Positions 45,017 through 54,633 of a stretch of DNA of 64,000 nt are shown here, in pieces. The stretch comes from Cirrosporium novae-zelandiae. Its lineage: Eukaryota. Every line of letters starts with the position of its first letter. The stretch's first letter is position 1. A program made the translations under genes and the position numbers. The stretch lies in contig JAPETS010000006.1 of the NCBI GenBank assembly GCA_026023565.1, forward strand, positions 558,001 through 622,000, given 5' to 3'. A model generated the notes under the pieces. The model did not search any database. It was not told the DNA's origin and saw only the letters and a program-made list of their open reading frames with translations.

Positions 45017-46043
45017 CACCATCGGCCCTGTTTGCTTACCTTCCCAACTTTCCCTTTTCCTTTCTTTCCTAAAAAACCCCCCAAAACCACACAATACACT
45101 TATCATTCCTCCACACCAAGTGTTGCTTCCCCCCAAATCTCCCACCCACACCACCCCCCCCCCTCCTCCTCCATCATCCATTAACAAAAAAATAATAAAA
45201 TAAAATAAAAAAATACTGCTTCATCCATTCGCGCCTTGTTGTCACTTGATACATTTAGTCTCATAGTTTCATCACGATACGTGTGGTACACCGCTCCCTT
45301 GCAGGAAATCCGAATCCGAATCCCCAATCATCATCCCAACATTGCCAACATTGCCAACATTGCCAGTATCAACCAAACATACATCGTCCAAATACATTGG
45401 AAAGCAACCATAGGTCGATACTGGGAGGACCGAGGGAAGTATAGCTGGGACACATTGTTTACCAACAATGATAGTTTTATGGTAGCCGCTGCATCATCGC
45501 TACACCATCCATCGCCTTCCATAGGTCACCAACTCTTCCCTTTGACTCTTTTTCCACACCAAAGAGAAAACAATTGTCGCAGCATTCCATTAATTTGTTG
45601 GCAACATTCCAATCACCCATAACCTCCTGCGACGACGTGAACAACTTTAGCCAACATAGCTTCCGTTCCCAAAATTTAAGTCTAATAACACCACACACAC
45701 ATACGTACACGAGTGATCGATGTCTATCGCTGGATGATAACAGAACCGGAGTTTGTCAACATAGGAAGGAACGAAACGGGTTTGCTGATATAACGGATCT
45801 GGACCCTTTTTCGCATTTCTGGGCCTTAGACTTAATTCCATCTCTTTTTTATCGCGGTATCGCGGTATCGCGTGGTTGCCTAACCACGTTTTATGGGCGC
45901 GTCACCTCAATACCTCAAAACAAAAAAAACCACTCAACCGCCTTCCTCGCTCACTCATTCACCGAATCAATTAACGTATTGAACGCCAAGGCCTTGTCAT
46001 TCCTTACCTTCATAAGCAATCTTGCTGTCCAGAAAACGCCAAA

Positions 46044-49000
46044 ATGGGTACCGCATTTTCTCCCCACCATGATTCTCCCATAACCCTCCATTTTCCATCA
46101 CCTCAAAACATCCACTCTGTCGATGCCACTGCTGCTTTACGTCGACTTCTTTCGCGTTCACCATCGCCTGCCAAATCTCCATTTCGATCTCCATCCAAGG
46201 GTCATGCTTTCCGGTTGGTAACCTCAGGTTCATCGTCTACCTCGACGTCGCCATCTCCGAAATCGCCCTTGTCGCACGTACTACACTCACCTGGCAAAGG
46301 AGGTTCGAATATCTTCGCCTCCATTTCCCCACATTCACCAATATCGAAATCTTACTCATCAGGTGCAAAGGCTGGCCGACCAACATTGCGCCGAACTCAG
46401 GCTATGCGACCAAATCGTTCAAGAACATCACCAAAAAGCCCGACAAAGCGCCCGCTCACTGATTTGTCCGACCGTGGCAATGCGACACCAAAATCCCCAA
46501 TTCCACTCTCCAAAGGCGACGAAAATAGAATCGCCAGAAGCGGAAGTCCCATCGCAAGGAGGTCGTTTGAAAGAGAACTAAAAGCTTTTAGTGCATCGGA
46601 TGGAGAGCACCACCACCGAACCTTGACCAAGAGGTCAAGTACCAACTTATCTGGATTCTCCATGACCCAAAGCCCTTTGAGGCGAAGTGACGGGATCATG
46701 AATCTCGACCAATGCGCACTGGAGAGCCCAAATCCAAAAAGAAGGAGTGTTCATGGCGCAACTTTCGGATCCAACTTCAATGTCTTTGATTCTGAAGCTA
46801 TGCGATCATCTCCAGAGAGTTCTCAAGAATACGACGGACAGGATGTGGAGATGTCTCCCGCACCACCAAATCTAACAACCACGGCACCTCCTCTATTTGC
46901 TCCAATTCCAAGTCGGTCGTCGTCTTTACGGAAATCTACCTTACAACAGAGATATCATGAGAAGCCCAATTTTCGGGCCAAGTTCATGGAATCAGATTTC
47001 GGCACCCCCCCTCAGAGCAGCAAGAGTCGACCACGTATATTTGATACCCCAGCTTCACGCGAAAGTCCATTTACGACACCCACCACTCAGAACTTATTTC
47101 TACCTCCATTAACTCGAAGCAAGCCGTTCAATGAACAGAGCTCTGCTCATCCTCATCCCCTCTCCCGTACCATTACACAGACTTCCTCGAGTTCAAGTAT
47201 AGTGGATGATTCCCCAACTCATGAGCCCGTCCACAAACCGGTTCGACCGCAAGGAAAATTCAACTTCTCGAAATCATTGCCTCTAGGTGCTACAAGACCA
47301 TTTTTCAGAGACGTGCAAGCATCGAACTCTCCAGACTCCTCATTCGAAACTCCAGCAAACTACAAGCTGGTGAAACCACTTCCGGCCGCTTTCATGTCAA
47401 CTGGATTAATTTCAAAGAAGAATAGAAATGTCGAAGAACTAGTGGGTGCTGCAGACTCAACCGGAAATATGCCGGATACCCCGTGCAAACGACCAGTTCA
47501 TGCATTTCCTCTTCCGCCTCAGCCGATCCCTGGTAGCACCTTTCGGAAAAGCTACAACCTACGTCATGCTTTTGGTACACCTTCTACGCCATTTAATGGG
47601 CACATGTCCACCGCTACACCAGCTGCTTTTGGTAGAGGTGTTAGTATATTTGGTGGCAGTATTTCAAATGGGAACGCAAACAGGCGTAGCAGCTTTCTTA
47701 GTATCAGTGGGGACGAGAGATCTGACACGCCTTCACTTGGAGATAGACAGAGTAGTGCTGATTATGACCTCCCACCTACACCGACCAAACTGCCTTTTAG
47801 CCAAGAACCTCGCTCCCAACCAATTCACCATTATCAAGATGCCCTCGTTCAAGCAGATCTCTCGAATACGACGCAAGGGCATAGCTTCTCTACAGCACCA
47901 AGTCGTAAGTACTTAACTTTTTCAATCGGAACGCCTTCTGGAAGCGTGGACGAGGACAGTGACGGCGTGATGGAAGACTCTCCATCTGCCACCCTGAGAC
48001 TCAAGTCTTCGCAATCCAAACATTCTACTTCATTTGCACAGTCTCGCCTGTTAAAGACGGCCAAATCCCCTCCCTCAGATTCCGCAAAGTTTCTTACCAC
48101 CCCACTTCTGAGAATCCAAACAAGAAATCATACTAAACGACTATCACTGTCTCCAGCAAGCCCGCTTTATGAGAGATTTCATCGCCGCTCGCCCCATACA
48201 CCTCAAGATAACATGGCGCCTCCTGATCCCAGCGGACTTTCAATATCAGGACACGACAATGATTTCCTGTCAAGACCTGCTACTCGAGGGAAAAGCAGCA
48301 CCGCCTCGTTTCCCCCAGCTACCCCCACGGGCCCTCGAGACTACTTCTCCCAAATAGGAAAACGATCGCTTGCAGCTTCTCTCAACGGACTTGACACTCC
48401 TGATGTAGATGCCAGCATGACTTCAAGGTTTGACAAAGTGGAAATTATCGGAACTGGTGAATTCTCTCAAGTTTATCGAGTATCCAAAAAACCTGCGCCA
48501 TCTTCTGGAAGCTCCCCCCAGGCACCGCTTTCAGATCGAGTATGGGCAGTAAAGAAGTCGAAAAATCCTTACACTGGCAATCGAGATCGCCAACACAAGC
48601 TTCGGGAAGTCCAGGTTTTGAAGGTACTAGGTCAATCCGACCACACCGTTCATCTAATCGATAGCTGGGAAGACAAAGGTCATCTCTATATTCAAACTGA
48701 GTATTGTGAAGAAGGGAGTTTGGATATGTTTCTCACTCAGGTTGGGCTGAAGGCTAGGCTGGATGATTTCCGGATCTGGAAAATCCTGCTCGAGCTTAGT
48801 CTGGTAGGTCATTGACTTCCGAATAATTTTGAACTGGAACTAATACATTCATCCTAGGGATTAAAACATATTCATGATTCCGGCTTCATTCACTTGGATC
48901 TTAAGCCTGCAAATGTACTTGTCACCTTTGAAGGGGTCCTCAAGATTGGAGACTTCGGAATGGCAACAACCTGGCCAGCTCCTCCTGGAATTGAGGGCGA

Positions 49001-49589
49001 AGGCGACCGTGAATATATTGGCCCCGAAATATTGAGGGGAGAATTCGATAAGCCAGCCGATGTTTTTGCTCTCGGTCTTATCATGCTAGAGATTGCCGGG
49101 AACGTAGAACTACCGGACAATGGTGCTTCTTGGCAGAAACTTCGATCTGGTGATATGAGTGACGTCCCAAGCTTGACCTGGAGTTCGGAAGTCAGCAATA
49201 TTCCAAGGGATCCCTCTGGAAACCCACTCACATCCGAAGCCAATGAAGATGCGTTCTCCTTTGATTTTGGGGATGACGAATTTGCCTCCCCAAAAATTGT
49301 CCGCCAACGTAGTCAGAAGATGACCCCAGTCAAATATAATCGCCCAACTGAACTTGTTCAGCCCCCAAGCTTTATGACAAATCCAGATGATACGAGAGCT
49401 CTGGACCATGTTGTTCGATGGATGATTGCCCCTGAACCAAGTGACAGGCCTGTCATCAGCCAAGTTCTGCAGACTGATGGTGTCGTCTGGGCCGAGACGC
49501 GACGCCGTGCTGGTGCAACTATCTTTGAAGGAAACTGGGGTCCGGCAGATGAAGCCCTTCAGGACGACGCTGAGATGATTGACGTTTAA
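46044..49589 (+). CDS. wee1: Wee1/Swe1 (AnkA-like) Cdk1 inhibitory kinase; intron 48804-48857, plus candidate in-frame optional intron 47905-48156
   Basis: IGTGEFSQVYRV, WAVKKSK, HLYIQTEYCEEGSL, RLDDFRIWKILLEL, HLDLKPANV, KIGDFGMA and EGEGDREYIGPE. Fungal N-terminal ETPANYKLVKPLPAAFMSTGLISKKNR and MPDTPCKR. Confidence 0.95.
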
Positions 49590-51330: not shown

Positions 51331-54300
51331 ATGGACCTCCGCAACTTTGTTTCTGACAAGCTCATCTCCCTCACTGGCTTTTCCGAGTCCATCTCAGTCG
51401 ACTTTATCCTTGCAACCGCTAAAGATGCCAAATCAATATCAAGCCTCCAAGAATCGCTTGCCACGAACCTCGATAAACCCATTGATGATTTGGGGAGTTT
51501 TGCTGCCGGCTTGTTTAGCCGGTTAGGTAAAGAGGACGTTATTAAGAAGAAGCCGGAGAAGGTCAAGGCGCCCAAGACAAAATATGCACTAGTGAATATG
51601 GAAGAAGATGAAGTCATTGCGCCGGTTAGAGTCGAAAGGGAGAAAGCGAAAAGAGAAAAGGGCCGGAGGAAGAGGCGGGAGAAAAGCCGTGAGCGCAGTC
51701 CAGATCGCAGGTCGTCGGACAGGAATGAGAGACACAGACCTAAGAAATTAAGAACAAGGGATAGAGAGGACTTTGAGGATAGATGGGGCGATGAAGAATA
51801 CTATGAAGATGAGCCCGCCGAGGAAGAATTCCGGGAGTCTCCCGCGAAGAGGGTACGACTGGATGATGGAAGCGTGTCGTCCAGGCCAGGGACTGATGAG
51901 TCTTCTGACGAAGATGAGGAAACAAAAGCCGAGAAAGCACGGGCGCGAGATCTTAAGGAACGAGACGAGTTTTCAAAACGACTGAAAGAGAAAGAGTCAA
52001 AGAATTCGAAAAAGCTCGTGGAAGACCGTTCATCGAAACATCGGGAAGGCGAAGTAGCTCGAAGACTTCTTGCTGAAGACAAAGGTGCTAGAAAAGCAGC
52101 TATGCCTGATCTTCGTTTACGGTCTAGGCAGGAATATCTAAAGAAGCGCGAGACCGAACAGCTTGCCCTGCTGCGCAAGCAAGTCACTGAAGAATCTCAA
52201 GAACTACGAACAAATCCCGACCTTACGAGAAGAGAGAAGGAGGAGTTTGCTAAAAACAGGCAGGTGCTACAACTTGCAGAGGAGAGGCTCAAGATCGACG
52301 ATCACAGGGATGGATATTATATGCCCGAAGACTATATCACGGAAAAAGGAAAACTAGACCGCAAGCGCAAGGAAGAGGCGTTGTATAAAAGATATATTGA
52401 CCGTGACGAACATGGACAGGAGCGCTTTGTAACGGAACAAGAAGAATGGGAACGGGAACAAACGGCAAAGGCCAGGGCGCAGATATCACGTCCAGAGATT
52501 GTGGATGAAGGAGATTATGAATATGTATTTGATGATGCTCAGAAGATCAACTTTGTCGAGGATCAGACATCGAGAATGGCTGGAGACCGCAAGCACATGA
52601 CCCAGGAACAACGACTACTAGCACAAAGAATCAATGAAGCTGAAAGAAAAGCGGCTTCGATAGAAGAAACCCGGAAAAATCTACCAATATATGAGTGGCG
52701 TGATAAAATTATTGAAGCTGTCCGGGAACATCAAGTTATTATTATCGTGGGAGAGACTGGTAGCGGGAAGACTACACAAATTCCACAATATCTGCATGAG
52801 GCTGGTTTTACGAAAGGGGGCTTAAAAGTCGGCTGTACCCAGCCAAGGCGAGTGGCAGCCATGAGTGTTGCTACTCGTGTCGCCGAGGAAATGGGTGTCA
52901 AGGTAGGCAACGAGGTCGGTTATGCCATTCGATTTGAAGACGCTACAAGCGACAAGACAGTCCTTAAATATATGACTGACGGTATGCTCCTGAGAGAATT
53001 GTTGACAGAGCCTGATCTGGGAGCATATGCAGCTCTGATGATTGACGAGGCGCATGAACGGACCGTTGCCACCGATATTGCTCTAGGATTACTCAAGGAT
53101 ATCGCGAAAGCGAGACCAGAGCTGAGACTATTGATATCCTCCGCTACTGTGAACGCACAGAAATTCTCTGACTACTTCGACCAGGCTCCAATTTTCAACA
53201 TTCCTGGTCGGCGGTACCCGGTCGATATACATTACACCCCACAACCTGAAGCGAATTACCTCGCCGCTGCTATCACCACGGTTTTTCAGATACACATCTC
53301 TCAGGGTCCAGGTGATATACTGGTGTTTTTGACGGGTCAGGAGGAAATTGAGGCAGCCGAGCAAAATCTTCAAGAAACTGCAAGAAAGCTTGGGAGCAAG
53401 ATAAAAGAAATGGTCATTTGCCCTATTTATGCCAATCTTCCCTCTGAACTACAGACGAAGATCTTCGAACCTACTCCGCCTAATGCACGAAAGGTCGTTC
53501 TGGCTACTAACATTGCCGAGACTAGTTTGACTATTGATGGCATTGTCTACGTGATTGATCCCGGTTTCGTCAAAGAAAATGTCTACAATCCACGATCTGG
53601 TATGGAGAGTTTGGTTGTCACCCCCTGTTCTCGAGCTTCAGCTGTTCAGAGAGCTGGACGAGCTGGTCGTGTAGGACCTGGAAAATGCTTTCGGTTGTAC
53701 ACAAAATGGGCGTACTATAATGAACTTGAAGAGAACACGGCACCTGAAATTCAGAGGACAAACTTGAGCAGTACTGTCCTACTACTGAGCTCCCTTGGTA
53801 TTACAGATCTTATTGGCTTTGATTTTATGGATCCACCGCCTGCGGAGACTCTTATCCGTTCCGTTGAACAGCTGTATGCCCTTGGAGCTTTGAACAATAG
53901 GGGTGAGCTCACCAAAACGGGAAGGCAGATGGCCGAGTTTCCTATGGACCCGATGATGGCGAAGGCCATCTTAGCAGCTGATAAATACGGCTGTGTGGAC
54001 GAGGTTCTGTCTATCGTATCCCTACTCGGTGAAGCAAGTGCACTCTTCTATCGTCCAAAAGACAAGAAAATTCATGCCGATAGTGCTCGAGCTCGATTCA
54101 CAATCAAAGAAGGGGGTGATCATTTCTCTCTGCTAAATATATGGAACCAGTGGGTAGACTCAGACTTTTCCTACGTATGGTCTCGTGAAAACTTCCTACA
54201 GCAGCGCTCCCTAACCCGAGCGCGAGATGTGCGAGACCAGCTAGCCAAGCTGTGCGATCGTGTAGAAGTGACCATATCATCCTGCGGAGCCAACGACCTA

Positions 54301-54633
54301 CCTCCAATCCAGAAAGCCTTGACCGCAGGCTTCTTCCCGAACGCAGCCAGATTGCAACGGGGCGGGGATAGTTACCGCACGGTCAAGAACGGCCAGACGG
54401 TTTATCTGCACCCGAGCAGCACCCTGTTCGGGGATCAGGCGCCCAAGTGGGTAATCTACTATGAGCTCGTGCTGACCAGCAAGGAATACATGCGATCCAA
54501 TATGCCACTGCAGCCGGAATGGCTTCTGGAAGTGGCTCCCCATTATTACAAAAAGAAGGATCTGGATTCGCTGGGGTTGGATAAAAAGATGCCTAAGGGG
54601 CAGGGCGCTGCGGGTGAAAGGAGTAGGATTTGA
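51331..54633 (+). CDS. PRP2: DEAH-box splicing helicase Prp2 / Cdc28 (DHX16), intronless
   Basis: [29 protein letters not shown] and QRAGRAGR. N-terminal [14 protein letters not shown] and YYMPEDY blocks are typical of DHX16. First ATG at 51331. Confidence 0.93.

What the first reader, a model, noticed from the sequence alone, without database searches (positions are those of the whole stretch)
47905..48156. Hidden in-frame, stop-free intron (exitron) inside the Wee1 regulatory domain
Seen: inside the continuous wee1 ORF there is a consensus donor GTAAGT (47905), a near-consensus branch TACTAAA (48131-48137) and a pyrimidine-rich acceptor TGTCTCCAG (ends 48156). The interval is exactly 252 nt (84 codons) with no stop. 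Both forms are therefore full-length kinases: spliced ...APS-PSPLY, or retained ...APSRKYL...LSPASPLY. The optional 84 aa sit upstream of the kinase domain and carry five S/T-P sites and an acidic DEDSDGVMEDSP stretch. Known: Wee1/Swe1 turnover is set by CDK/Polo phosphodegrons in the N-terminal region. Inference: regulated retention versus splicing could toggle a phosphoregulatory or degron module and tune G2/M timing. The weak branch site fits partial splicing.
Basis: partly seen in the sequence, partly recalled or inferred. Interest (0 to 1): 0.72.

Follow-up and report, generated by a model that had tools for sequence, protein, structure and literature searches.

The report
Protein-coding intron in fungal Wee1
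A 252-base stretch in the cell-division brake gene wee1 of this fungus has conserved intron signals and also evolves as protein across many filamentous fungi, so the gene probably makes a short and a long kinase, although the long one has not been directly observed.

Summary
Observation confirmed: 47905-48156 is a 252-nt, phase-1, stop-free GT-AG interval inside the single wee1 gene. Alone it could be chance (about 0.08 per exon this size), but relatives settle it. In 38 distinct sequences with an intron here, the donor is kept in all, and 35 are 201-264 nt, 3n and open. The ordinary second intron is never both (0 of 32). Codons are frozen at donor, branch and acceptor, while the interior evolves as protein (dN/dS 0.22) with reduced synonymous change. 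Near-identical protein pairs lacking exactly this segment, some from transcript-like contigs, show splicing in relatives. NCBI lists both isoforms for Cladophialophora immunda. No degron motif is conserved, and regulation and the long protein are unshown. No RNA run was listed for this genome. My searches found no paper on it. The scan has noted the same class in other fungal genes (Tea4, Cdc24, Rvs161, kinesin-14, VDAC) but not in wee1.

The parts
46044..47904 (+). wee1 coding exon part 1 (ATG to the optional intron); disordered N-terminal regulatory region
   Evidence: AlphaFold pLDDT under 50 over nearly all of it
47905..48156 (+). 252-nt phase-1 in-frame, stop-free intron that also encodes 84 aa (residues about 621-704)
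47905..47910 (+). 5' splice site GTAAGT, read as Arg-Lys-Tyr when retained
   Evidence: GTAAG in 38 of 38 distinct sequences, second codon always AAG
47949..47985 (+). acidic stretch ending in a conserved D/E-S-P site
   Evidence: Pro in 34 of 35 with all four codons; [DE][ST]P in 183 of 298 segments
48030..48074 (+). best-conserved peptide island, S-F-x-x-S-R...S-P (S663, R668, P676)
   Evidence: nearly invariant columns in a 48-sequence alignment; 247 of 298 segments
48131..48137 (+). non-consensus branch site TACTAAA, read as Thr-Lys when retained
   Evidence: GCT or ACT codon in 34 of 35 rows; 26 or 23 nt from the acceptor in nearly all
48154..48156 (+). 3' splice site CAG, across a Pro codon that is always CCA
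   Evidence: CCA in 31 of 31 Pro rows
48157..48803 (+). coding exon part 2: conserved S/T-P motifs and the kinase N-lobe
48804..48857 (+). ordinary 54-nt intron with an in-frame stop (used as control)
48858..49589 (+). last exon: kinase C-lobe to stop

Best explanation
An ancient dual-coding intron. The wee1 pre-mRNA is usually spliced at 47904^48157 to give a 1079-aa kinase. Because the intron is long for these fungi (about 250 nt against about 50 nt for the second intron) and its branch site is held off-consensus, a fraction of messages, or those of certain cell states, keep it and give a 1163-aa kinase. The extra 84 disordered residues add conserved Ser/Thr-Pro and basic S-F-x-x-S-R motifs about 90 residues before the kinase domain; most likely these are phosphorylation or docking sites that change turnover, localisation or activity. 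SHOWN: the signals, their conservation, protein-level selection, and splicing in relatives as inferred from sequence pairs. INFERRED: splicing in this species, existence of the long protein, and weak-branch control of retention. GUESSED: what the module does and whether the ratio is regulated (about 50% regulated, about 30% a stability or degron effect).
For: Donor present in 38 of 38 distinct sequences; 35 of 38 are 3n and stop-free; intron 2 is both in 0 of 32. Synonymous diversity is 0.00 at the donor, branch and acceptor codons against 0.64-0.80 at conserved Pro and Arg codons inside the segment. dN 0.079, dS 0.36, dN/dS 0.22 (0.16-0.28) over 7 disjoint close pairs; flanking dN is 0.07-0.12. 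Four-fold sites in the interior differ at 70 of 260 against 524 of 1236 in the flanks, P=3e-6 with sites pooled. P0188 (contigs up to 4874 nt) is 99.9% identical to P0211 and lacks exactly the 82-aa segment and the 17-aa read-through of intron 2. P0327/P0326 and P0347/P0344 (99.8-99.9%) behave the same way. C. immunda isoforms OQU94118.1 (1075 aa) and OQU94117.1 (1159 aa) differ by these 84 aa. Genomic loci with no intron (L029, L042, L050, L053, L078) or a short non-coding one at the same donor with a consensus branch (L038, L057) nest among open copies in the tree.
Against: No transcript-like sequence with the segment kept and intron 2 removed was found. The 17 such proteins with an unspliced-intron-2 neighbour, out of 182 examined, are all NCBI gene models (sources). 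No peptide evidence was found. Several lineages lost the coding state, including about ten of 150 cluster representatives whose frame ends just after the donor, so it is dispensable. The interior is poorly conserved between classes. No degron motif is conserved. All splicing evidence comes from other species.
Confidence: 0.75

Rival explanations
1. Constitutive intron: always spliced in practice. The open frame and apparent coding conservation are relics or by-products of nucleotide-level constraint.
For: All diagnostic transcript-like sequences are spliced. The donor is perfect consensus. Synonymous sites in the interior are constrained. The coding state was lost repeatedly.
Against: 35 of 38 are 3n and open across several classes. 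Conserved Pro, Arg and Ser residues use freely varying synonymous codons. dN equals that of the flanking exons while dS is about five times higher than dN. Where coding is lost, the intron shrinks to 92-103 nt and the branch reverts to consensus.
Confidence: 0.1
2. Textbook exitron: the retained 1163-aa form is the main one, at least in this lineage, and splicing is the minor regulated event.
For: The NCBI model P0001 keeps the segment, as do many other gene models. The branch is weak. GC is 0.47 against 0.36 in intron 2. Two Sordariales models (P0550, P0574) show a long segment with no donor-like tripeptide (protein only).
Against: Gene models are predictions that favour open frames. Transcript-like assemblies from lichen fungi and Xylariales are all spliced.
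Confidence: 0.12
3. Chance motifs inside an ordinary exon.
For: A motif scan alone gives about 0.08 hits per exon of this size.
Against: Frozen codons at exactly the three splice signals, precise in-frame deletions in near-identical pairs, and short conventional introns at the same donor.
Confidence: 0.02

Closest known systems
Exitrons, EIx3 class, of Arabidopsis and human (Marquez et al. 2015, PMC4484396; passages and section 4 read)
   Same: Inside a coding exon, no stops, full splice signals, length 3n, GC above ordinary introns, falls in a disordered region with likely phosphosites.
   Different: There the unspliced form is the major isoform and splice sites are weak. Here the donor is perfect, only the branch is weak, and the spliced form dominates the transcript-like evidence. 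It is conserved across fungal classes, with losses in two ways (deleted, or shrunk to a plain intron) and possibly a third (donor lost).
Intron retention in fungal kinase genes, e.g. STE20/PAKA of Trichophyton rubrum (PMC6274995; abstract read)
   Same: Retention proposed to change the N-terminal regulatory part of a kinase.
   Different: That case is proposed to remove an autoinhibitory domain in one species. Here retention adds an in-frame conserved module.
Swe1 turnover in budding yeast (multisite phosphorylation by Cdc28 and Cdc5; passages in PMC13320911) and SCF-beta-TrCP degradation of human Wee1 (title seen in the reference list of PMC10295169)
   Same: Long disordered N-terminal region rich in S/T-P sites.
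   Different: No conserved canonical degron in the segment. No splice control of this region turned up in my searches.

Membership tests
Exitron (EIx3) | Internal part of a coding exon, no stop, length 3n | tested here: met
   35 of 38 distinct sequences
Exitron (EIx3) | Canonical 5' site, branch point and 3' site | tested here: met
Exitron (EIx3) | Junction reads and exonic reads both observed | tested here: inconclusive
   No RNA run listed. Spliced forms inferred in relatives; both isoforms annotated in one species
Exitron (EIx3) | Unspliced transcript is the major isoform | tested here: not met
   Tested indirectly and only in relatives: every diagnostic transcript-like sequence is spliced. 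Assemblies drop minor forms and give no ratios
Exitron (EIx3) | Weaker splice signals than ordinary introns | tested here: inconclusive
   Branch weak (CTAAR in 34 of 35); donor consensus GTAAGT in 37 of 38
Exitron (EIx3) | GC above introns and length nearer exons | tested here: met
   0.47 against 0.36; 201-264 nt against 46-63 nt
Exitron (EIx3) | Origin from ancestral coding exon | not tested
   No identified outgroup; the tree was quick and midpoint-rooted
Wee1/Swe1 kinase | C-terminal kinase domain closest to Wee1/Myt1 after a long N-terminal region | tested here: met
   source names SWE1/WEE among homologues
Phosphodegron module | Conserved DSGxxS-like, D-box or KEN motif (definitions recalled) | tested here: not met
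   2, 19 and 0 of 298; loose acidic variant 68 of 298
Phosphodegron module | Changes protein half-life | not testable with these tools
   needs bench work

The most novel reading that the evidence does not exclude
Filamentous ascomycetes have kept, since before the split of their major classes, a regulated splice switch in the mitotic brake Wee1. Retention of this intron, set by a deliberately weak branch site and by constrained interior sequence, inserts a phospho-regulated module that retimes mitosis in particular cell states. It may belong to a wider set of such coding introns in polarity and cell-cycle genes.
Probability: 0.3. Interest if true: 0.87.

Novelty: new variant of a known kind. 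Interest (0 to 1): 0.72.

Why it matters
Most alternative isoforms in a well-studied filamentous fungus shorten or break the reading frame; only 11.6% were in-frame in Fusarium graminearum (10.1101/2021.11.08.467853, passages read). A frame-preserving, peptide-conserving intron in the main G2/M kinase, kept across several classes, would be a rare case of deeply conserved functional alternative splicing in fungi and an unreported layer of Wee1 control. It is directly testable with splice-locked alleles. It also explains why public Wee1 gene models split between about 1100 and about 1190 aa, so annotations and phosphosite numbering are inconsistent.

Tried and rejected
RNA runs for this locus: no RNA holder listed, so no reads could be laid. 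Conserved RNA structure as the cause of low dS was not found: window z = -1.04, mean z = -0.09 over 35 segments against synonymous recoding, and RNAalifold gave 0 pairs on 23 sequences; local elements are not excluded. A conserved antisense ORF was rejected: open in 8 of 35 segments against 6 and 4 in the flanks. A polo-box S-S-P site created by splicing was rejected as general, because the junction residue varies (Ser, Thr, Ile, Met, Leu, Pro). A folded insert is not supported: pLDDT is under 50 in a low-confidence model (mean 43). Peptide evidence: the supplements held for PMC6614480 (6 files), PMC9430611 (2 files) and PMC10775494 (1 file) gave no Swe1 peptide. The rice blast phosphoproteome supplements (preprint 10.1101/2023.08.19.553964, seen in the listing only) could not be seen and may bear on this. 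Literature searches for a prior report listed none, but most subscription journals are not held. The branch-residue count failed through a faulty pattern and was not used. No complex prediction was run.

Full report
Observation. The gene starts at 46044, has an ordinary 54-nt intron at 48804-48857 and ends at 49589. The retained product is 1163 aa and identical to P0001, which the tool labels as a hypothetical protein of Cirrosporium novae-zelandiae, a Xylobotryomycete. It is a Wee1/Myt1-type kinase and single-copy in G000. The five S/T-P sites match the local average of 4.7 per 84 aa. A motif scan by itself would give such a hit about 0.08 times per exon of this size, so the window alone proves little.

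Splice signals in relatives. A metagenome scan gave 79 loci, the best of 170 relatives. Of these, 17 were exact duplicates over the region, 8 did not span it, 9 have no interval here and 45 have a donor at the homologous place in phase 1. Collapsed at 90% identity and with the window added, these are 38 distinct sequences. All 38 have GTAAG and 37 have GTAAGT. In 35 the intron is 201-264 nt, 3n and stop-free. One (L051, 256 nt) has a single frameshift. Two (L038, 103 nt; L057, 92 nt) are short non-3n introns whose branch has reverted to CTAAC or CTAAT. The second intron serves as control: 46-63 nt, 14 of 32 are 3n and all 14 hold a stop, and the branch is CTRAY in 28 of 32. The long intron has CTAAR in 34 of 35. 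In the codon alignment of the 35 open copies, synonymous diversity is zero at the donor codons (AAG in 33 of 33 aligned Lys), the branch codon (GCT or ACT in 34) and the acceptor Pro (CCA in 31 of 31), while other Pro codons vary freely. Among the first 120 homologous proteins, 119 show the C/S/R/G-K-L/S/F/Y tripeptide that the donor spells; that set is biased, because the query contained the segment.

Coding signal. Over 7 disjoint close pairs the segment has dN 0.079, dS 0.36 and dN/dS 0.22 (bootstrap 0.16-0.28). The flanks have dN 0.07-0.12 and dS 0.68-0.88 (Nei-Gojobori counting, no tree model). Conserved residues inside use all synonymous codons, such as a Pro in 34 of 35 and an Arg with CGN and AGR codons, which is protein-level selection. 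Synonymous change is also reduced throughout the interior: 70 of 260 four-fold sites differ against 524 of 1236 in the flanks, and interior dS is lower than in the long upstream and downstream flanks in 7 of 7 pairs. I found no conserved RNA structure and no conserved antisense frame to explain this. Splicing-regulatory sequence is the remaining guess.

Evidence for splicing, from relatives only. The Logan, ENA and JGI proteins in these results behave as intron-blind ORF calls: they stop at intron 2 or read through it (P0211, P0212, P0214, P0215, P0230). P0188, seen on 4 contigs of at most 4874 nt, is 99.9% identical to P0211 over 1013 aa and lacks exactly the 82-aa segment and the 17-aa intron-2 insert, as a processed mRNA would. 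P0327/P0326 (99.9%), P0347/P0344 (99.8%) and P0456, P0458, P0328 against P0332 (about 95%) repeat this in Xylariales-like fungi; loci L063-L065 carry the last of these as DNA with both introns absent. P0130/P0202, P0124, P0205, P0210/P0235 and P0209/P0064 (99.6-99.9%) differ by exactly 80 aa. Their lineage lacks intron 2, so only the short contigs point to RNA. That these contigs come from RNA is my inference; retrocopies or strain-level intron loss are not excluded. Genomic loss is seen in L029, L042, L050, L053, L078 and, from ORF calls on 31-36 kb contigs, in Paecilomyces.

Evidence for retention. It is indirect. The selection data above are the main support. NCBI holds two isoforms from one C. 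immunda contig, 1075 and 1159 aa, differing by these 84 aa. A paper on that species describes RNA-seq, PASA and EvidenceModeler annotation with more proteins than genes (PMC5595782, passages read); I did not verify that these accessions come from that annotation. Against: among 182 retained proteins with intron 2 removed, the 17 that have a close neighbour with intron 2 unspliced are all NCBI gene models, so no transcript-like retained form was found. No peptide was found in the three supplement sets searched. No RNA run was listed for this locus, which is no evidence either way.

Breadth. Of 150 representatives at 50% identity, a script classed 78 as long and open (71 with the donor tripeptide), 23 as short, 6 as intermediate, 19 as ending after the upstream anchor and 24 as unclassified. 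About ten of the 19 end just past a donor-like motif; several of the others are long open copies that the pattern missed. The profile was built from retained forms and favours them. Named relatives with the long form include lichen fungi, black yeasts, Xylariales and Trichoglossum. In a quick, midpoint-rooted tree of 78 rows (2 proteins skipped, segment left out), short and intron-less states nest among open ones, which suggests the coding state is ancestral for this group. I did not test the root or the origin.

Mechanism. Most likely the intron is mostly spliced and sometimes kept, with its length and off-consensus branch setting the leak. The branch could read Asn or Asp with a consensus site but reads Lys in 34 of 35, so either the Lys or the weak branch is selected; I cannot tell which. 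The long form gains a disordered 84-aa stretch (pLDDT under 50 in a low-confidence model). Its best-kept features are S-F-x-x-S-R (247 of 298 distinct segments), S/T-P-x-P-L (198) and D/E-S/T-P (183); segments average 4.8 S/T-P sites against 3.4 expected from upstream sequence (segments were picked by pattern and are not independent). Since Swe1 turnover in yeast depends on multisite phosphorylation by Cdc28 and Cdc5 (PMC13320911, passages), a phospho-regulatory role is plausible. No canonical degron is conserved, so the degron reading is one option among docking, localisation and activity effects.

Comparison and novelty. It works like an EIx3 exitron (PMC4484396, passages and section 4) but appears to fail the feature that the unspliced form is major, so I file it as a translatable retained intron of exitron type. 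The cloned rice blast MoSwe1 cDNA encodes 1110 aa, and that paper has no occurrence of 'intron' or 'splic' (PMC10775494, passages). Six searches listed no paper on this event (listings and abstract starts only). Earlier notes of this scan describe the same class in other fungal genes but nothing on this sequence or place; I did not check those notes.

Verdict. Real, conserved and apparently unreported. The intron and its coding constraint are well supported; the long protein is probable; regulation and function are open. Interest 0.72.

Noticed in passing
window 51331-54633 (+): Uninterrupted 1100-aa DEAH-box RNA helicase (Prp2-like by recall) directly downstream of wee1. The same neighbour lies next to wee1 in 7 of 79 loci, though most loci are too short to show it.
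   Followed up: partly
window 45853-45901: Four CGCG cores, three in a tandem 8-nt repeat, within 200 nt upstream of the wee1 ATG (0.56 expected per 400 nt). They resemble G1/S promoter elements (recalled). Not consistently seen in 14 relatives.
   Followed up: partly
P0446 (KAG4222032.1): A 133-aa protein labelled Phytophthora cactorum on a 1793-nt contig clusters at 90% with Daldinia Wee1; probably fungal contamination of that assembly.
   Followed up: no
P0125, P0154, P0186, P0473: Gene models that remove a different piece overlapping the segment (upstream donor with an internal acceptor, or an internal donor); prediction errors or further splice variants.
   Followed up: no
P0550, P0574 (Sordariales): Long segment present without a donor-like tripeptide; possibly fixed as constitutive exon. 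Seen at protein level only.
   Followed up: no
P0211, P0212, P0214 (Lobaria-like): The second intron is 51 nt and open in frame in this lineage, so ORF callers read through it.
   Followed up: partly
L009, L029, L035, L041, L042, L050, L052, L053, L056: The second intron is absent from genomic DNA in several separate lineages.
   Followed up: no
L051:3533-3788: Long copy with a single frameshift but an otherwise typical segment; recent decay or assembly error.
   Followed up: no
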